From a virus, in the IMG/VR virus record IMGVR_UViG_3300042691_038416, positions 60,140 to 124,139 of that record: a stretch of 64,000 nucleotides of DNA. One strand, given 5' to 3'. Shown here one piece after another: positions 2,148 to 18,875 of this stretch (position 1 is the stretch's first letter; every line of letters starts with the position of its first letter). Below the pieces are notes generated by a model. The model did no database searches. It was not told the origin of the DNA and saw only the letters and a list, made by a program, of their open reading frames with translations. The translations under genes and the position numbers were made by a program.

Positions 2148-2246
2148 TCGCTGAGGTGAGATTCGAACTCACATTTTCTACTCTGGCCTTAACCGCGGGT
2201 TGACCTTTTTCGAGGTGTTATCCATTTAATTTTACACTACTCAGCT
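2148..2246 (-). ncRNA. tRNA-like RNA with extended, non-canonical anticodon arm
   Basis: GCTGAG/CTCAGC acceptor, GTGT/ACAC D stem, GTGAG-TTCGAAT-CTCAC T arm; no 7-nt anticodon loop. Confidence 0.7.
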
Positions 2247-2339: not shown

Positions 2340-2343
2340 TTTG

Positions 2344-2416
2344 TTGCGGAGACAGGAATCGAACCTGTGACCTCCAGGTTATGAGCCTGGCGAGCTACCT
2401 CTGCTACCACTCCGCG
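2344..2416 (-). tRNA. tRNA-Met(CAT), initiator-like
   Basis: CCAGG-CTCATAA-CCTGG anticodon arm; C1-A72 mismatch; TTCGA T loop; no encoded CCA. Confidence 0.92.
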
Positions 2417-13631: not shown

Positions 13632-13820
13632 TTAACTTAATTTATTTTTCTTATTAAAGTTAATATAATCATAATCATCTTCCTCAACCACTTGAACAAT
13701 TTCAACAAAGTCATATTCAGCAATAGCTGCTGCTTCTTCTTCAGCTTCTTGTTTAGTTATAAATCCTAAATCAGATTTAAACCATTGTCCATGTACATCT
13801 TGTATGAGGAATGTATACAT
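13632..13820 (-). CDS. Small acidic hypothetical protein
   Basis: Likely start MYTFLIQD; the longer track ORF overlaps a tRNA-like element. Confidence 0.55.
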   Translation of the reverse strand: MYTFLIQDVHGQWFKSDLGFITKQEAEEEAAAIAEYDFVEIVQVVEEDDYDYINFNKKNKLS

Positions 13821-13855
13821 GTTGTGTTGTTTATTTATACATATTAACACTTTTG

Positions 13856-13943
13856 CGGTCAGAACAGGAATCGAACCTGTGTTCTTATTCATCACATGTG
13901 TGAATAACTCTTATTAATTGCCTCACCATTCAGCCACCTGACC
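13856..13943 (-). ncRNA. tRNA-like RNA lacking a canonical anticodon arm
   Basis: GGTCAGG/TCTGACC acceptor, D arm with TGG, ACAGG-TTCGATT-CCTGT T arm; AT-rich TTATTCA/TGAATAA hairpin in place of anticodon arm. Confidence 0.75.
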
Positions 13944-13945
13944 AT

Positions 13946-14160
13946 TTCGCCCAACCGTTTCCGGCTGTCCCTAATACCGAATAGCATCGCTCAGCGGCAA
14001 CCCACTTTCGTGAGAGGTTAGGACTTGTGTGTTAACTTACTACTGTTACTGGTACACCAACCAACCGACTTAGGCTCAAGTAATCGGCTCAGGTCCCTGT
14101 GAGCAATGACCTCACTTCTCATCATGCGGGACACATTAGCTGATTATCAGTCAGCACGTG
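13946..14160 (-). ncRNA. Candidate ~210-nt structured RNA
   Basis: GC-rich, no ORF in track; stems GCTGA/TCAGC, GTCCC/GGGAC, GTGAG/CTCAC, GCCGAT/GTCGGT; GAAA tetraloops CTCAC-GAAA-GTGGG and CAGCCG-GAAA-CGGTTG. Confidence 0.7.
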
Positions 14161-14235
14161 TAGTCCGTACGGGATTCGAACCCGTGATCTCTTCCGTGAA
14201 AGGGAAGTGTCCTAAACCAGCTAGACGAACGGACC
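14161..14235 (-). tRNA. tRNA-Glu(TTC)
   Basis: CTTCC-CTTTCAC-GGAAG anticodon arm; canonical cloverleaf. Confidence 0.95.
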
Positions 14236-14242
14236 ATGTTTA

Positions 14243-14536
14243 TTAAACTAAAAACTCAACTTCAATTTCCTCAGATATCTTATTCATAATTTCATCAGCC
14301 CATTGATATGAGTCTAATGGAACAAATCTATCTGATTTATATCCCATTTCACGACCTAATCGTTCTGAGTATGGTGAGATAATTTCATCAAGAGCGATAG
14401 CGGAACCATCATTAGATAGTATTTCTCTAATTGTATATGTCTCACCTACTTTTAATTTACTTAATGCTTCAATGGTTTCAGGTCGATTATCTTTAGGTGT
14501 ATTATTGATACAAACTACTTTTTGTCCTACATCCAT
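14243..14536 (-). CDS. Hypothetical phage protein
   Basis: VGQKVVCIN..GETYTI..RF pattern. Confidence 0.65.
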   Translation of the reverse strand: MDVGQKVVCINNTPKDNRPETIEALSKLKVGETYTIREILSNDGSAIALDEIISPYSERLGREMGYKSDRFVPLDSYQWADEIMNKISEEIEVEFLV

Positions 14537-14730
14537 TACTTATCTTCTCCTTTATAAGGTTCTGTTTCAATTGTTTTAGGTAAAGGTAAACCATATATTT
14601 TTATCAATTTAACATATGTTTCATCTCCCTTTCTACACTCAACCCACAATCCATTTTCTTTACCATTTGTGGTGAGTGGAATAATAATCAATTCTTCTTT
14701 AAATAAATTCTTAAACCAATTAATAATCAT
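14536..14730 (-). CDS. Hypothetical protein
   Basis: Likely start MIINW. Confidence 0.5.
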   Translation of the reverse strand: MIINWFKNLFKEELIIIPLTTNGKENGLWVECRKGDETYVKLIKIYGLPLPKTIETEPYKGEDK

Positions 14731-15031
14731 ATGCTTCCCAACTTGTGAGTTCAAATACTAATCTTAATTCAATAACTTCTTTTGTTTCTTCATCTACAGT
14801 TGCTGTTGCTCGAAATCCACCTGTAGCGTTTATATAATTTGATTTTTCTTTTACAGCACCATCATAAGCACCATGAAGTAAATCCATTGCACATTTAAAT
14901 AATGCTCCGGTAGTGGGTACTTCACCTTCACTAGTAGCCCATGTCCAGTTTAGTAATGTCATGGCTTTATGAACTTTTCCCCAATTAAAGTTCTCAATAA
15001 TACTATCAATTGCTTTTTCTTTATTTAACAT
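14720..15031 (-). CDS. Hypothetical phage protein
   Basis: Start MLNKEK after promoter 15043-15074; F...KVHKAM..LNW.W..ATGGF. Confidence 0.7.
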   Translation of the reverse strand: MLNKEKAIDSIIENFNWGKVHKAMTLLNWTWATSEGEVPTTGALFKCAMDLLHGAYDGAVKEKSNYINATGGFRATATVDEETKEVIELRLVFELTSWEAYDY

Positions 15032-15253
15032 AACCTTTTTATTGAATATAAATTTAAAAACTTTATAAGCCAAATTATACTGTTTCTTCCCAAACTCCAA
15101 TAAATTCAGAGATAAGTAATACAATTGAAGCCAATATCATATCATATGGTAGGAGAATATATCCTATCATTCTAATAAATGATTTGGTAAAACTAAGCAT
15201 TTTGTGTTTTTTAGGATCTGGATGATTCATCTTCTTTATATTTTAATTGTTAG

Positions 15254-15327
15254 TAGTCCCGACGAGGATCGAACTCATAACCTACTGCTTAGAAGGCAGT
15301 TGCTCTATCCAATTGAGCTACGGGACC
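15254..15327 (-). tRNA. tRNA-Arg(TCT)
   Basis: ACTGC-CTTCTAA-GCAGT anticodon arm; canonical cloverleaf. Confidence 0.95.
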
Positions 15328-15422
15328 ATATTTTAACAGTATGGACATTCATATCCTCGTTCTCTAACATCATAATATTTTTGACACTTAGAACATTTTT
15401 TCCACACTTCATGATTAAATAG

Positions 15423-15499
15423 TACTCCCGGAGGGACTTGAACCCACGTGTAACCAACTACCCTTTCTACATGGTATAAGCATGAGGGGATACGGGAGC
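15423..15499 (-). tRNA. Non-canonical tRNA-Ile(TAT)-like RNA with rearranged arms
   Basis: GCTCCCG/CGGGAGT acceptor; CATG-CTTATAC-CATG anticodon-like arm with no preceding D arm; TTCAAGT T loop. Confidence 0.6.
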
Positions 15500-15505
15500 G
15501 TGAAT

Positions 15506-15763
15506 TCATATTGTTATTGTTACTTTATTATCTTTAAAACTAATTTCTTTTATTACTCTTATTTTACCATCCATGAAATATCTTCCCACATCCATTCCTA
15601 CTCTAATAAATGGACCACCTGATGGATCAACAAACTCAATAACTCCATCTAGATTTGTTCCTACTCTATAATAATCACCTCCTATCATTTCTATTTGATT
15701 ATCACTAATCTGTTTAAAAATAATATCATCTCCGTAGCGGTTAATATAACTTGCGGTCTTCAT
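15506..15763 (-). CDS. Hypothetical phage protein
   Basis: NRYGD..F, FVDPSGGPFI..G motif. Confidence 0.7.
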   Translation of the reverse strand: MKTASYINRYGDDIIFKQISDNQIEMIGGDYYRVGTNLDGVIEFVDPSGGPFIRVGMDVGRYFMDGKIRVIKEISFKDNKVTITI

Positions 15764-15971
15764 TTTGAGTTCGATTTCTTAGGATTGATTCTAGTATGAT
15801 TTTTTTGTTTGCTTCATCTCTTGCTTCTCTTTCAAGTTGGGAATTTTTACTTTTGAGCAGATTAATTTCTTGCTCTAGCTTAGTATTCTTCTTTTCCAGT
15901 TTAATATAAGCTATAGATATTCCTATTAATAAAAGTATAAGAGAAACAATCATGTGTTTGATTTTTTTCAC
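15741..15971 (-). CDS. Membrane-anchored coiled-coil protein
   Basis: GTG start, N-terminal TM, heptad pattern. Confidence 0.55.
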   Translation of the reverse strand: MKKIKHMIVSLILLLIGISIAYIKLEKKNTKLEQEINLLKSKNSQLEREARDEANKKIILESILRNRTQNEDRKLY

Positions 15972-15975
15972 TGGT

Positions 15976-15994
15976 GAAAGGGGCCGTAGCCCCT
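15976..15994 (-). terminator. Terminator after HTH gene
   Basis: AGGGGC-TACG-GCCCCT-TT on minus strand. Confidence 0.6.
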
Positions 15995-16022
15995 AAAAAC
16001 ACCAAAGAAAAATTATTGAAAA

Positions 16023-16250
16023 TTAAGCGGTTTGCTTAACACGACGACGTGAAACATAATACATTGCATTAGCAATATCATCATTAATACGACGACGACG
16101 AGCTTTCACATTTGAGATGTGAGACTCAGAGTAACCAGTTTCAGCAGCGATGCGCTGGTTGTCACCACGGCGTTCACGTGCCATGTAGAATGCTAAAATT
16201 GCTGTGCGGTTCATACGACGCTTCAGAGATTTCATTTTACTTTTTTTCAT
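16023..16250 (-). CDS. Small basic helix-turn-helix DNA-binding protein
   Basis: QRIAAETGYSESHISNV HTH pattern; own promoter and terminator. Confidence 0.7.
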   Translation of the reverse strand: MKKSKMKSLKRRMNRTAILAFYMARERRGDNQRIAAETGYSESHISNVKARRRRINDDIANAMYYVSRRRVKQTA

Positions 16251-16336
16251 AACGTTTTTTTTTGTTTTTAATTTTTAAATTTATATTATTAATATATGTT
16301 AAAAGATTTTGGAAGCCAAACTTTTTAACTTCTCTT

Positions 16337-16501
16337 TTATTTAATCCATTCTTCATAACCCATAACTATAGCCTCCACAATTGATAATTGAGGATTTTCT
16401 TTCATACTCTTAAGGGCGAATGTGACTACTTCTGCTTCTAATCCATAACCAGAGGCATTTTTAATTGCGTTTCCTATAATTTTAAGTTCTTCTAATTCCA
16501 T
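16337..16501 (-). CDS. Small hypothetical protein (54 aa, not in ORF track)
   Basis: MELEELKIIGNAIK...EEWIK; promoter 16520-16551. Confidence 0.6.
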   Translation of the reverse strand: MELEELKIIGNAIKNASGYGLEAEVVTFALKSMKENPQLSIVEAIVMGYEEWIK

Positions 16502-16553: not shown

Positions 16554-18875
16554 TTATGGATATAGGTAAGAGGACATTATCTTATAATCTTCACTACCAA
16601 AATGTACTAAAATGACAGAAGCCTCATTTGCTAAAGTTATACTACTATTATTATCAATTGTTCCTCCACTTGGAGCATTTACAGAATAACTAGATCCTCC
16701 ACCAGTGTTTTTTATCATAAAAACTTTTCCTGTCTCATATCCTGTAGCCATATTAAGATCAGTTTTTATTTCTATAGCGCAAAATCTATTATCTATATTA
16801 TCTGTGGCTGTGGCTACACTTAAACCAGGAACAGTTAATGATCTAACACCATCATCATATGTAAAATTAGTATGACCTGTAAAATTATCACTATTCCCAG
16901 CATATTGAACTCGACCTGGAGAACCTCCACTACCGTTATTAGGTTTATAAAATATTGTTGTGGTACCTGCTCCATCATCTGATCCTGAGTAATTGCTACC
17001 AGAAAATTTTAAAACAACAGAATTTGAATATGATGTGGCATTAACTTGTAAATCTTTAAGAGTTCCACCTCCACCGCCACCACCACCTCCAAAAGCACTA
17101 GAGGCAGTATAATATAATTGACCTGTAGTGGTATTGATAGTGACCACATTAGATTGGTTAGTGGTAGTTAACATTGGGAAAAATACACTACCAGAAGAAT
17201 TTAAACTACCTGTGACACTTAATATACTACCATTAAATCTAAAATTAGACTCACCATTTATTGTATTAGCAGTTCCTGTGGCTGTAAGAATATAATTATC
17301 AAAATTATTATTTATAGTTACTCCACTTCCTCCACCAAACGCACTTGATGCTGTATAATATAATTGTCCGGTTGCTGTATTAATTGTGACTACATTAGAT
17401 TGATTAGTAGTGGTTAACTCAGGAAAATAAATGGCTCCTGAGGAAAACATTCGTGTAGTACTAACTCCAAGCATATCAGCTCTAGTACCAGCGTTAGCCC
17501 CTTTACCTATAACAAATACATCTGTTGTGTTATTTTGTTTGTTATAATAACCTATAGCTGTTTGAGCTGAACCTGACGCTATAGTTCCTACACCTGAGGC
17601 ATGAGAAAAATTTCCAAACGCTGTTGTTTCTGATCCTTCAGCATGTGAGGCTGTTCCTATAGCATTTGTAACTGATCCCTCAGCATGTGAGTATACTCCT
17701 GATGCTGTTGTGACATTTCCTTCTGAGTGAGCATATACTCCTAGTGCTGTAGTACTATATCCTTCAGCATGTGATGAGGCTCCTGATGCAAAAGTTAACT
17801 GACCTTCAGCGTGTGAATATAAACCAGCAGCAGTAGTATTAATTCCTTGAGCTAAACTTTTAGATTCATATTGGAAAAGAAAACTAGCATCTCCTTCAAA
17901 AGTACTAGCTGAATTAAACTGTACTGAATATTCTACACCACCCGGATTTGTACTTCCTCCTCCACCAAATGCGCTTGATGCTGTATAATATAGTTGTCCT
18001 GTAGTTGTGTTAATAGTTACAACATTTGACTGATTTGTTGTTGTTAACCCTGGAAGAAAAACATTTCCTGAGGCAAATGTTCTAGTTGAACTTACTCCAA
18101 AAGCATCTGCTCTTGATCCTATACCTGCTCCATTACCAACTGTAAATAAATCAGTTGTATTACCTTGTGTGTTATATTGGCCTACTACAGTTTGCGCTGC
18201 TCCAGAAGCTACTGTATTTTGACCTAAAGCTGTTGAAGCTTCTCCTTTAGCAACAGTACCAGCATTAGCAGCAAATGAGTAGTTTCCTGATGCGTGCGCA
18301 CTTAAATTAAATGCTGCTGTTTGGGTTCCAGAAGCAGTACTATTATATCCAAAAGCAATTGATCTATTTCCACTTACTAATGAATATCCTCCTCCAACAA
18401 ATCCACCATCCCCATCAATAGTGATAATATTATTATCACCCATAGCTAAAGCTGAGTTCCCAGAAACATTATTATTTTGTCCAAATGCTACTGAGCTATC
18501 ACTTCCTGATATATTTAAATTATAACCAACAGCTATTGAGTTGATTGCATTCACTACAGGAGGTGCTCCGCCACCTGATGATCCTAAAGATAAACTTCTA
18601 GATTCATACTGATAAAGAAAATTATCATCACCTTCTAAAACACTAGCTGAGTTAAATTGAACAGAATATTCTACTCCGCCAGGAGGTGTTCCTCCTCCTC
18701 CAAGAGCAGTTGAAGCTGTGATAAATACTCGTCCACTGCTACTTATTATTAGTACATCAGATACAGTTGTTGGTGGTGTTGTTAGTGTTGTGAAATCTAC
18801 ACTACCTGAAACAAGTAAACTACTTGATACTTTTAGATCTTTAAAACTACCTGATCGAGCTACAAATGTTGGCAT
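16554..18875 (-). CDS. Virion fibre/adhesin-like protein with YadA-head (Hep_Hag)-like repeats
   Basis: 14-aa ASGxxSHAEG repeats; 3x LTTTNQSNVVTINTxTGQLYYTASSAFGGG; 2x PGGVEYSVQFNSAS. Confidence 0.75.
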   Translation of the reverse strand: MPTFVARSGSFKDLKVSSSLLVSGSVDFTTLTTPPTTVSDVLIISSSGRVFITASTALGGGGTPPGGVEYSVQFNSASVLEGDDNFLYQYESRSLSLGSSGGGAPPVVNAINSIAVGYNLNISGSDSSVAFGQNNNVSGNSALAMGDNNIITIDGDGGFVGGGYSLVSGNRSIAFGYNSTASGTQTAAFNLSAHASGNYSFAANAGTVAKGEASTALGQNTVASGAAQTVVGQYNTQGNTTDLFTVGNGAGIGSRADAFGVSSTRTFASGNVFLPGLTTTNQSNVVTINTTTGQLYYTASSAFGGGGSTNPGGVEYSVQFNSASTFEGDASFLFQYESKSLAQGINTTAAGLYSHAEGQLTFASGASSHAEGYSTTALGVYAHSEGNVTTASGVYSHAEGSVTNAIGTASHAEGSETTAFGNFSHASGVGTIASGSAQTAIGYYNKQNNTTDVFVIGKGANAGTRADMLGVSTTRMFSSGAIYFPELTTTNQSNVVTINTATGQLYYTASSAFGGGSGVTINNNFDNYILTATGTANTINGESNFRFNGSILSVTGSLNSSGSVFFPMLTTTNQSNVVTINTTTGQLYYTASSAFGGGGGGGGGTLKDLQVNATSYSNSVVLKFSGSNYSGSDDGAGTTTIFYKPNNGSGGSPGRVQYAGNSDNFTGHTNFTYDDGVRSLTVPGLSVATATDNIDNRFCAIEIKTDLNMATGYETGKVFMIKNTGGGSSYSVNAPSGGTIDNNSSITLANEASVILVHFGSEDYKIMSSYLYP

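What the first reader, a model, noticed from the sequence alone, without database searches (positions are those of the whole stretch)
15423..15499. Rearranged tRNA with UAU anticodon loop and no D arm in the normal position
Seen: a 7-bp acceptor stem (GCTCCCG/CGGGAGT) and a T arm (GTGGG-TTCAAGT-CCCTC, one mismatch). The anticodon-like hairpin CATG-CT TAT AC-CATG starts only ~8 nt after the acceptor strand and is extended by CCCT/AGGG. A GG-containing D-like segment (GTAGTTGGTTAC) comes after it, where the variable arm would be. Established: bacteria normally decode AUA with lysidine-modified CAU, and UAU tRNAs are rare. Inference: a functional non-cloverleaf tRNA-Ile for AUA codons, a decoy for anticodon nucleases, or a new tRNA-like class.
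Basis: partly seen in the sequence, partly recalled or inferred. Interest (0 to 1): 0.75.

Follow-up and report, generated by a model that had tools for sequence, protein, structure and literature searches.

The report
Rewired phage isoleucine tRNA (UAU)
This 77-base phage gene is very probably a working isoleucine tRNA for the AUA codon in which one D-stem strand and the D-loop lie after the anticodon arm instead of before it, a conserved non-cloverleaf layout that tRNA finders and annotations miss.

Summary
On the minus strand of window 15423-15499 lies a 77-nt RNA gene with a 7-bp acceptor stem, a T arm, a UAU anticodon hairpin and a GG-bearing D-loop-like segment after that hairpin. ARAGORN misses it. 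Rfam's tRNA model gives 24.5 bits, under its cut-off of 29.

It is not a broken tRNA. Pattern scans brought in 308 such genes in 304 loci, 200 of them distinct. Nearly all loci are viral contigs. Only 8 genome-collection contigs, all labelled MAG, hold one.

Covariation supports every helix, including a 3-bp D-stem whose strands flank the anticodon arm, and an R15:Y48-like pair.

Moving one block in silico turns 198 of 200 into ARAGORN-callable tRNAs, against 0 of 200 native.

In the scan that left the anticodon free, all 81 distinct genes carry UAU or GAU. They sit in same-strand tRNA arrays and fill the isoleucine slot that the canonical genes leave empty.

Expression and charging are not shown. 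I found no paper describing this layout. This scan has reported the same class on other DNA many times.

The parts
15493..15499 (-). Acceptor stem, 5' strand (GCUCCCG, tRNA positions 1-7)
   Evidence: Pairs with 15424-15430. All 7 pairs show changes on both sides in 149 relatives, and 97.1% of cells are paired.
15490..15492 (-). Connector U8 A9 plus U (equivalent of position 22, opposite U13)
   Evidence: U8 and A9 are invariant and the third U is at least 90% conserved in 149 sequences. The search patterns did not fix these columns.
15487..15489 (-). D-stem strand CCC lying BEFORE the anticodon arm (equivalent of positions 23-25)
   Evidence: Pairs with GGG 15461-15463. In 200 distinct genes the types are CCC/GGG 85, CTC/GAG 56, CGG/CCG 20, CCG/CGG 10, ACC/GGT 9, CCA/TGG 4 and TCC/GGA 4, plus rarer ones. 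All 3 pairs change on both sides and 99.6% of cells are paired.
15486..15486 (-). Unpaired C (equivalent of position 26)
   Evidence: Invariant in 149 of 149 sequences and not fixed by any pattern.
15470..15485 (-). Anticodon arm: U.U (27:43 begins here), 4-bp stem CAUG/CAUG, 7-nt loop CUUAUAC; anticodon UAU at 15476-15478
   Evidence: All 4 stem pairs covary and 99.5% of cells are paired. The loop keeps C32, U33, A35, U36 and A37. In the scan that left the anticodon free, 76 of 81 distinct genes carry TAT and 5 of 81 carry GAT.
15464..15469 (-). U43, A44 and the GAAA linker that joins the anticodon stem to the second D-stem strand
   Evidence: GAAA was required by my patterns, so its invariance is by construction. 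A role in groove contacts, like positions 9 and 45 of a normal tRNA, is inference.
15460..15463 (-). D-stem strand GGG plus U, lying AFTER the anticodon arm (equivalent of positions 10-13)
   Evidence: Pairs with 15487-15489.
15448..15459 (-). D-loop-like segment A14 G15 U U G18 G19 U U A C A, ending in C (equivalent of position 48)
   Evidence: G15458 and C15448 behave as the 15:48 (Levitt) pair: A:U 95, G:C 49 and other 5 of 149. This pair ranks 12th among all column pairs by mutual information. GG and the TA before R15 were fixed by the patterns.
15431..15447 (-). T arm GUGGG-UUCAAGU-CCCUC
   Evidence: 98.0% of cells are paired in relatives. The window has a U.U at the second pair; 15 of 149 relatives also lack a standard pair there.
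15423..15430 (-). Acceptor stem 3' strand CGGGAGU and discriminator A (15423)
   Evidence: The discriminator is A in 200 of 200 distinct genes. CCA is not encoded here (the next bases are CTA). C follows the discriminator in all 121 first-scan genes.
15253..15327 (-). Neighbouring canonical tRNA-Arg(UCU), 95 nt downstream on the same strand. It is part of the array with tRNA-Glu (14160-14235) and tRNA-Leu (13855-13943).
   Evidence: ARAGORN; Rfam 68.2 bits.

Best explanation
The gene encodes an elongator tRNA-Ile (anticodon UAU, codon AUA) with a rewired core.

In a normal tRNA the order is 1-9 | 10-21 (first D-stem strand and D-loop) | 22-44 (second D-stem strand and anticodon arm) | 45-48 | T arm. 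Here the two middle blocks are swapped: 1-9 | 22-44 | GAAA | 10-21 | 48 | T arm.

The D-stem still forms, but around the anticodon hairpin, so the secondary structure is a three-way junction and not a cloverleaf.

Shown here:
- the family exists and is large;
- all helices, the 15:48-like pair and the arm order are conserved;
- the anticodon is restricted to isoleucine;
- the genes lie in phage tRNA arrays.

Inferred:
- The RNA folds into the usual L-shape, using U8:A14, R15:Y48 and G18G19 against the T-loop.
- It is cut out of the array transcript by RNase P and 3' processing, and receives CCA from the host enzyme.
- It is charged by host IleRS through the anticodon loop and A73.
- It supplies AUA decoding to an AT-rich phage.

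Why this topology is kept is not known.
For: 1. Family. It gave 121 complete genes, 81 of them distinct. Three further scans brought the total to 308 genes in 304 loci, 200 distinct.

2. Structure. On 149 sequences, 98.2% of cells are paired against 66.8% in shuffles. The covariation score is 0.794 against 0.194, reached by 0 of 500 shuffles. Versions with the 3' partners slid score 0.087-0.171. All 3 D-stem pairs change on both sides. The 16 best column pairs by corrected mutual information are all pairs of this model.

3. Block swap. ARAGORN of 200 native genes. After the 10-21 block is moved in front of the 22-44 block it of 200: 189 Ile-tat, 7 Ile-gat and 2 miscalled.

4. Isoleucine identity. 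With the anticodon left free, 76 of 81 distinct genes carry TAT and 5 of 81 carry GAT. The discriminator is A in 200 of 200. A37 is kept in 199 of 200.

5. Array context. 223 of 308 genes have another tRNA within 1 kb, and 764 of 764 such neighbours are on the same strand.

6. Complementary slots.
- Of 40 loci with 12 or more other tRNAs, 24 have a canonical GAT and no canonical TAT beside a rewired TAT. One has a canonical TAT.
- The 3 loci with a rewired GAT have no canonical GAT.
- In the cultured phage Kehishuvirus 'tikkala' the rewired gene is GAU and the canonical Ile gene is TAT.

7. This phage. It has 30.6% G+C, and ATA accounts for 424 of 1271 Ile codons, or 27.5 per 1000 codons. No canonical tRNA-Ile is among its tRNA-model matches.

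8. No conserved partner. No neighbouring protein cluster occurs in more than 27 of 200 loci. This fits use of host enzymes.
Against: - There is no evidence of transcription, processing, CCA addition or charging. The two true RNA runs give depth 0 to 0.75 over the element.
- The invariance of GAAA, of TA before R15, of GGT and of GGGTTCRA is by construction of my patterns.
- The window's copy has a G.U at 1:72, a U.U in the T stem, only 4 standard pairs in the anticodon stem and a 3-bp D-stem. Its MFE is no better than that of shuffles.
- The ARAGORN permutation test is lenient: with the moved block shuffled it still of 200.
- 15 of the 40 large arrays hold no canonical Ile gene in the part fetched, so complementarity is not seen everywhere.
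- A UAU anticodon could misread AUG unless U34 is modified. Nothing here speaks to that.
- The L-shape is inferred from conserved positions, not modelled.
Confidence: 0.77

Rival explanations
1. It is a tRNA mimic that is not used in translation. It could be a decoy or sponge for a host tRNA-Ile-directed nuclease, toxin or modification enzyme, or a regulator that imitates uncharged tRNA-Ile.
For: - The anticodon loop, acceptor end and T arm would also be conserved in a decoy.
- The core differs from every host tRNA, as one might expect of something meant to be seen by some proteins and not by others.
- No charging or expression data exist.
Against: - The genes fill exactly the Ile isoacceptor slot that the canonical genes of the same array leave empty, in both directions (UAU or GAU).
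- The A73 discriminator is invariant in 200 of 200, and the acceptor plus T helices keep the standard 7+5 layout.
- The positions that build the tRNA elbow are kept: U8, A14, R15:Y48, G18G19 and the T-loop.
- The family occurs in phages of hosts as different as Bacteroides, Streptomyces and Rhodococcus and in aquatic viral contigs. A defence system common to all of these is not known to me.
Confidence: 0.14
2. It is a precursor that is rearranged at the RNA level into a normal cloverleaf, by analogy with permuted or split tRNA genes.
For: Moving one block gives a canonical tRNA in 198 of 200 cases.
Against: - The 5' and 3' ends are already in the normal places, so circularisation, as in permuted genes, would not help.
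- An internal cut-and-paste of 16 nt has no known enzyme.
- No conserved ligase or endonuclease gene lies nearby: no protein cluster occurs in more than 27 of 200 loci.
- The D-stem covaries in the native order, which already gives a consistent fold.
Confidence: 0.02
3. It is a decaying tRNA pseudogene, a chance resemblance, or part of the 58-codon ORF 15333-15509 on the same strand.
For: - ARAGORN and Rfam do not call it.
- An ORF spans it.
- The MFE is not better than that of shuffles.
Against: - 200 distinct homologues show compensatory changes in every helix and no change of arm order.
- The conserved columns are the tRNA tertiary positions, with no three-base periodicity.
- In annotated relatives the element lies between genes or between tRNAs.
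Confidence: 0.01

Closest known systems
Canonical class I elongator tRNA-Ile (Rfam RF00005), including UAU isoacceptors of phages. An example is the ARAGORN-called tRNA-Ile(tat) at L340 2735-2809 in Kehishuvirus 'tikkala'. TilS-independent bacterial UAU tRNAs such as that of Mycoplasma mobile are recalled, not read here.
   Same: - 7-bp acceptor stem, 5-bp T stem and UUCRA T-loop.
- 7-nt anticodon loop with U33 and A37; discriminator A73.
- U8, A14, R15:Y48 and G18G19 are kept.
- Length of 75-79 nt.
- Located in tRNA arrays.
   Different: - The block 10-21 lies after the anticodon arm, so the D-stem encloses that arm.
- There is no D hairpin.
- The fold is a three-way and not a four-way junction.
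- A GAAA linker replaces positions 45-47.
- The anticodon stem has 4 standard pairs plus U.U.
- It scores under Rfam's cut-off (24.5 against 29 bits).
D-arm-lacking mitochondrial tRNAs, for example nematode and mammalian mt-tRNA-Ser (review PMC7609411; passages read)
   Same: No D hairpin between the acceptor and anticodon stems.
   Different: - Those have lost the D-arm and its GG, are shorter and are described as flexible.
- This RNA keeps all D-arm nucleotides and a covarying D-stem, in another order.
- It would work with bacterial, not mitochondrial, machinery.
Permuted and split tRNA genes (Cyanidioschyzon merolae, Nanoarchaeum; recalled, not read here)
   Same: The segments of a tRNA occur in a non-standard order in the gene.
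   Different: In those cases the mature tRNA is a normal cloverleaf after processing. Here the ends are normal, an internal block is displaced, and the mature RNA itself would be non-cloverleaf.
allo-tRNAs and (8/4) phage tRNAs (Mukai et al., PMC5389517; passages read)
   Same: Irregular tRNAs found in metagenomes and phage tRNA clusters. UAU is a common allo-tRNA anticodon.
   Different: Those keep the cloverleaf order with 8/4 or 9/3 acceptor/T stems, a long variable arm and a Sec-like D-arm. This RNA is 7/5 and has no variable-arm helix.
Rewired phage tRNA-Arg genes. They were seen here in the same loci and reported before by this scan on other DNA.
   Same: Anticodon arm directly after U8 A9 and a short strand; a GG-bearing D-loop-like segment after it; located in phage tRNA arrays.
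   Different: - They carry arginine anticodons (TCT, TCG, CCT, GCG).
- Most have other linkers and a TAATGGATGAAAAT-type loop.
- They score only 31-42 bits on the Ile model, except L186 2526-2602 (CCT, 75.9 bits), which shares the Ile scaffold.

Membership tests
Canonical tRNA (Rfam RF00005 / cloverleaf) | Score at or above the family's gathering cut-off (29 bits) | tested here: not met
   24.5 bits, E 0.0036. Not listed at gathering thresholds.
Canonical tRNA (Rfam RF00005 / cloverleaf) | D hairpin between position 9 and the anticodon arm | tested here: not met
   Only 6 nt (UCCCCU) lie there. The Rfam alignment deletes the D arm. ARAGORN makes no call.
Canonical tRNA (Rfam RF00005 / cloverleaf) | 7-bp acceptor stem, 5-bp T stem with UUCRA loop, 7-nt anticodon loop with U33 and purine 37 | tested here: met
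   The window's copy has one G.U and one U.U.
Canonical tRNA (Rfam RF00005 / cloverleaf) | Aminoacylation and use on the ribosome | not testable with these tools
   No charging data. RNA runs gave no cover of the element.
Rewired phage tRNA-Ile family (defined here by model R1) | D-stem strands on either side of the anticodon arm, kept by compensatory changes | tested here: met
   Pairs 11:39, 12:38 and 13:37 all change on both sides, and 99.6% of cells are paired.
Rewired phage tRNA-Ile family (defined here by model R1) | A14 R15 .. G18 G19 .. segment after the anticodon arm, with R15 covarying with the base before the T stem | tested here: met
   A:U 95, G:C 49 and other 5 of 149. The window has G:C.
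Rewired phage tRNA-Ile family (defined here by model R1) | Isoleucine anticodon (UAU or GAU) and discriminator A | tested here: met
   The window has UAU and A. In the family, 76 TAT and 5 GAT of 81 and A in 200 of 200. One exception carries CCT.
Rewired phage tRNA-Ile family (defined here by model R1) | High score on the family covariance model | tested here: met
   96.3 bits, against 19.6 for the best canonical tRNA of the window. The window's sequence was among the 81 used to build R1, so this is partly by construction. 'tikkala', which was not in the model, scores 77.4 bits.
D-armless mitochondrial-type tRNA | Loss of the D-arm nucleotides, including G18 G19, and a shortened molecule | tested here: not met
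   The gene is 77 nt, GG is kept and a D-stem is present.
Class II tRNA (long variable arm) | Conserved helix within the region between the anticodon arm and the T arm | tested here: not met
   No pair inside columns 43-53 appears among the 40 best mutual-information pairs. Only 42:54 does. The GUA/UAC pairing of the window's copy is not kept in relatives.
allo-tRNA (8/4 or 9/3) | 8- or 9-bp acceptor stem with a 4- or 3-bp T stem | tested here: not met
   The layout is 7/5 throughout the family.

The most novel reading that the evidence does not exclude
Phages have evolved a second working tRNA architecture. It is a three-way-junction tRNA in which the D-stem encloses the anticodon arm, used for isoleucine and, in related forms, arginine. 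It is read by bacterial IleRS or ArgRS, EF-Tu and ribosomes. It is kept because the altered core changes how host tRNA-directed nucleases, toxins or modification enzymes see it, or how it decodes weak A/U-rich codons. This would be a natural non-cloverleaf elongator tRNA outside organelles.
Probability: 0.3. Interest if true: 0.95.

Novelty: new variant of a known kind. Interest (0 to 1): 0.85.

Why it matters
The cloverleaf order of arms is treated as universal for tRNAs that work with bacterial, archaeal and eukaryotic cytosolic machinery. A conserved, widespread family that keeps every core nucleotide but strings them in another order has several consequences.

- The L-shape can be reached by a second topology.
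- It gives a natural test case for what synthetases, EF-Tu, RNase P, the CCA enzyme and the ribosome really read.
- It offers a possible source of orthogonal tRNA scaffolds.
- Phage tRNA complements are under-counted. None of the named phage records that I opened annotates the gene as a tRNA, and ARAGORN calls overlap only 5 of 308 genes. Estimates of phage codon adaptation for AUA are therefore biased.
- Cultured phages carry the gene, so the question can be tested directly. They are Kehishuvirus 'tikkala', Rhodococcus phage Peregrin, and Streptomyces phages LilMartin, MulchMansion, Angela, Coruscant, Targaryen and Evy.

Tried and rejected
- RNA evidence. One search for public runs gave 4 runs with small shares (0.06-0.10). 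Laid on 13800-16500, the two true RNA runs gave depth 0 and 0-0.75 over the element. The two runs that are probably DNA hold relatives' copies (records 22, 28, 29). This says nothing either way about expression.

- Synteny. A search for relatives of the 773-aa neighbour (16554-18875, minus strand) in viral contigs found none. I therefore could not ask what sits at this slot in close relatives of this phage.

- Thermodynamic fold. The result is uninformative.

I first tested 12-14:37-39 and found no variation. The scans showed the true register, 11-13:37-39.

- A conserved partner protein. None was found; the largest neighbour cluster is in 27 of 200 loci. The nucleotidyltransferase gene beside the element in the two Streptomyces phage records opened is not general.

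- Second blastn query. A CGG/CCG-type gene found no cultured phage.

- Literature. Eight full-text searches listed no paper describing this layout.
  - I read only matching passages of PMC7609411, PMC10690425, PMC13092985 and PMC5389517.
  - Supplementary tables were closed. Those of PMC10690425, with 10,006 candidate viral RNAs, could contain this motif unnamed.
  - Subscription journals are not covered.

- Not run: tRNAscan-SE and 3D modelling, which are not on hand.

- Rows dropped.
  - One partial gene at a contig end (L075) was left out of the counts.
  - Alignment A3 holds 149 of the 200 distinct genes: all 59 of the rarer D-stem types, a random 50 of 85 CCC/GGG (the window among them) and a random 40 of 56 CTC/GAG.
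  - Two hits of the relaxed layout scan were ordinary tRNAs read in a false register (L106).

Full report
**What is there**

Read on the minus strand, window 15499-15423 is a 77-nt sequence. In order it holds:
- GCUCCCG, the acceptor 5' strand;
- UAU;
- CCC, then C, then U;
- CAUG-CUUAUAC-CAUG, the anticodon hairpin with anticodon UAU;
- U, A, GAAA;
- GGG, then U;
- AGUUGGUUACA, then C;
- GUGGG-UUCAAGU-CCCUC, the T arm;
- CGGGAGU, the acceptor 3' strand;
- A, the discriminator.

ARAGORN finds five tRNAs in the window, all on the minus strand, but not this one. They are Met-cat, Leu-taa, Leu-aag, Glu-ttc and Arg-tct. Rfam at gathering thresholds finds the same five.

At a loose threshold the Rfam tRNA model matches 15423-15499 with 24.5 bits, against a cut-off of 29. 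It does so by deleting the D arm and inserting 18 nt in the variable region. The RNAfold energy is no better than that of shuffles, with z -0.27.

**It has homologues in unrelated phages**

blastn of the element against 50,697 phage records found 18 records.
- Eight match the core from U8 onward: crAss-like phage cr130_1, bajarodcaudo virus 1, Rhodococcus phage Peregrin, Streptomyces phages LilMartin, MulchMansion and Angela, and two records of Coruscant.
- The other ten match only the T-arm end of a tRNA-Lys.

In the five records I opened, the element is not annotated as a tRNA. It lies between genes or inside tRNA clusters. ARAGORN does not call it there either.

The six-sequence alignment already showed three things:
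- different but complementary acceptor and anticodon stems;
- invariant UAUCCCC and GAAAGGGUA;
- anticodons TAT (4 sequences) or GAT (2 sequences).

**Size and spread of the family**

With the named loci and the window this gave 121 complete genes, 81 of them distinct.
- All 81 carry TAT (76) or GAT (5).
- All 81 have discriminator A.
- Lengths are 76-78 nt.

The same pattern over 596 billion bases of prokaryote genomes gave 35 hits. Only 8 of them score as family members, at 74.9-97.8 bits on model R1. All 8 lie on contigs whose record titles are marked MAG. The family is therefore essentially viral.

Cultured carriers include Kehishuvirus 'tikkala' (host Bacteroides cellulosilyticus) and Streptomyces phages Targaryen and Evy.

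**Structure**

On the 81 sequences, the acceptor stem, a 4-bp anticodon stem, the T stem and one isolated pair all covary. The isolated pair joins the purine after the invariant A with the base before the T stem.

The CCC/GGG pairing did not vary in that set. I therefore scanned for genes with a non-G at each of the three G positions (64 loci, at least 120 loci, 22 loci). These scans select for change on the 3' side only.

The 5' side had changed to match, in the register 11:39, 12:38, 13:37. Among 200 distinct genes the types are:
- CCC/GGG 85
- CTC/GAG 56
- CGG/CCG 20
- CCG/CGG 10
- ACC/GGT 9
- CCA/TGG 4
- TCC/GGA 4
- several rarer types.

I then aligned 149 of the 200 distinct genes. The subset holds all 59 of the rarer types, a random 50 of 85 CCC/GGG and a random 40 of 56 CTC/GAG. 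On it:
- 98.2% of cells are paired, against 66.8% in shuffles;
- the covariation score is 0.794 against 0.194, reached by 0 of 500 shuffles;
- slid versions score 0.087-0.171;
- all three D-stem pairs change on both sides, and 99.6% of cells are paired;
- the isolated pair reads A:U 95, G:C 49 and other 5.

The 16 highest column pairs by corrected mutual information are all pairs of this model.

**Mapping to standard tRNA numbering**

The order is: U8 A9, then U22 N23-25 C26, then 27-43 (the anticodon arm), then N44, then GAAA, then N10-12 U13, then A14 R15 .. G18 G19 U20 .. C A, then Y48, then the T arm.

Compared with a normal tRNA, the block 10-21 has changed places with the block 22-44. 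The D-stem now encloses the anticodon hairpin, and the D-loop runs from the D-stem straight to the T stem. The secondary structure is a nested three-way junction.

The partners of the known tertiary contacts are all present: U8 with A14, R15 with Y48, and G18 G19 with the T-loop. U8, A9 and C26 are invariant without having been fixed by any pattern. GAAA, the TA before R15, GGT and GGGTTCRA were fixed by my patterns, so their invariance is by construction. That the RNA reaches the usual L-shape is my inference from these positions.

**A direct test of the block-swap reading**

A script moved the 10-21 block in front of the 22-44 block in all 200 genes and ran ARAGORN.
- Native: 0 of 200 called.
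- Reordered: 198 of 200 called (189 Ile-tat, 7 Ile-gat, 2 miscalled as Tyr-ata).
- Boundary shifted by -3: 1 of 200. Shifted by +3: 40 of 200.
- Moved block reversed: 0 of 200.
- Moved block shuffled: 96 of 200.

The shuffled control shows that the test is lenient towards the D-arm. The contrast between native and reordered genes is still clear.

**Evidence that it is used as a tRNA**

Across 304 loci holding 308 genes:
- ARAGORN calls overlap 5 genes;
- 223 genes have another tRNA within 1 kb;
- all 764 such neighbours are on the same strand.

Among 40 loci with at least 12 other tRNAs:
- 24 have a canonical Ile-GAT and no canonical Ile-TAT beside a rewired TAT;
- one has a canonical TAT;
- 15 have no canonical Ile gene in the part fetched;
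- the three loci with a rewired GAT (L078, L089, L105) have no canonical GAT;
- two of those three (L089, L105) carry both isoacceptors in rewired form.

In Kehishuvirus 'tikkala' the rewired gene lies at L340 2495-2571. It scores 77.4 bits and was not used to build the model. It fills the unannotated 89-nt gap between tRNA-Trp and tRNA-Met in an array of 23 ARAGORN-called tRNAs. It carries GAU, while the array's canonical Ile gene carries TAT. The rewired genes thus take whichever isoleucine slot the canonical genes leave open.

No neighbouring protein cluster is found in more than 27 of 200 loci. No dedicated helper enzyme is indicated.

**This phage**

The window is the last 64 kb of a 124,139-base viral record, estimated to be 76% complete. 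It encodes a DNA polymerase, a GroEL-like chaperonin and glycosyltransferases.
- It has 30.6% G+C.
- ATA accounts for 424 of 1271 Ile codons, or 27.5 per 1000 codons, in 53 long ORFs.
- Its other tRNAs (Arg-UCU, Leu-UAA, Glu-UUC) also serve A-ending codons that are frequent in its genes.
- No canonical tRNA-Ile is among the record's seven tRNA-model matches.
- The element lies 95 nt upstream of tRNA-Arg-UCU on the same strand.

**Other anticodons**

A relaxed layout scan of the fetched loci and model R1 found one gene in the same scaffold with anticodon CCT, which reads an arginine codon: L186 2526-2602, 75.9 bits.

They also found looser relatives of the layout that score 31-42 bits. A motif from these relatives hit 7 viral loci with 8 genes. 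All carry arginine anticodons: TCT 2, TCG 3, CCT 1 and GCG 2. Longer forms have CTCA:TGAG or CGG:CCG D-stems.

The layout is therefore not unique to isoleucine. I did not study the arginine forms further.

**What is not shown**

- There is no evidence here for transcription, processing or charging. The public RNA runs gave no cover of the element.
- I could not find close relatives of this phage to compare the slot.
- The reason for the topology is open. Candidate reasons are escape from host proteins that act on tRNA, or tuned decoding of a weak A/U-only codon-anticodon pair.
- How a UAU anticodon avoids AUG is also open.

**Comparison with what is known**

Eight full-text searches and the passages read in four papers turned up no description of this layout.
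- The review of non-canonical tRNAs (PMC7609411), in the passages shown, covers Sec, allo- and mitochondrial tRNAs. It holds no occurrence of the word 'phage'.
- Rfam 15 has no family for the layout.
- Supplements were closed and subscription journals are not covered, so 'not in print' is limited to these searches.

This scan has reported the same Ile class and the Arg class on other DNA many times, with the same reading. I reached the block-swap reading before seeing those follow-up texts. They are not independent evidence.

**Verdict**

- A non-translational mimic stands at about 0.14.
- It is a new structural variant of a known kind of molecule, and of high interest.

Noticed in passing
window 2148-2246 (minus strand): A 99-nt tRNA-like sequence that scores 28.1 bits on the Rfam tRNA model, just under the cut-off of 29. 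It has an acceptor stem, a D arm with a 15-nt loop and a T arm. About 40 nt with a long hairpin lie where the anticodon arm should be, and no clear anticodon is visible.
   Followed up: partly
window 2343-2416 (minus strand): ARAGORN calls this tRNA-Met(cat), but Rfam gives only 39.8 bits, with mismatches in the acceptor stem. Whether it is an elongator Met, an initiator or a lysidine-type Ile2 tRNA is not resolved. This bears on whether the phage has a second AUA decoder.
   Followed up: no
L186 2526-2602; L111, L334-L339; L336 478-555 and 3407-3493; L338 1793-1876: The same rewired layout occurs with arginine anticodons. One gene in the Ile scaffold carries CCT (75.9 bits on R1). A second type, with a TAATGGATGAAAAT loop, has 8 genes in 7 loci, all with Arg anticodons. 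Longer forms of 84-87 nt have CTCA:TGAG or CGG:CCG D-stems.
   Followed up: partly
L340 2495-2571 (Kehishuvirus 'tikkala', OQ198717.1): This cultured crAss-like phage has a rewired tRNA-Ile(GAU) in an unannotated gap of its tRNA array. Its canonical Ile gene carries TAT, the reverse of the usual arrangement.
   Followed up: yes
first base after the discriminator in the 121 first-scan genes (window 15422): C follows the discriminator A in all 121 genes, although full CCA is encoded in only 7 of 121. This may be a processing or CCA-repair signal. I did not compare it with canonical neighbours.
   Followed up: no
L070 5165-5228: A truncated 64-nt copy of a rewired GAT-type gene (34.5 bits on R1) lies between two full rewired genes of the same array. 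It looks like a decayed duplicate.
   Followed up: no
L004 957-1478 and L005 961-1482 (Streptomyces phages LilMartin and Coruscant): A nucleotidyltransferase gene ends just upstream of the rewired tRNA. In Coruscant the annotated start of the FtsK-like gene overlaps the tRNA by about 25 nt, which suggests a misplaced start.
   Followed up: no
window 15333-15509 (minus strand): A 58-codon ORF spans the whole RNA gene on the same strand. A gene caller could annotate it as a small protein in place of the tRNA.
   Followed up: partly
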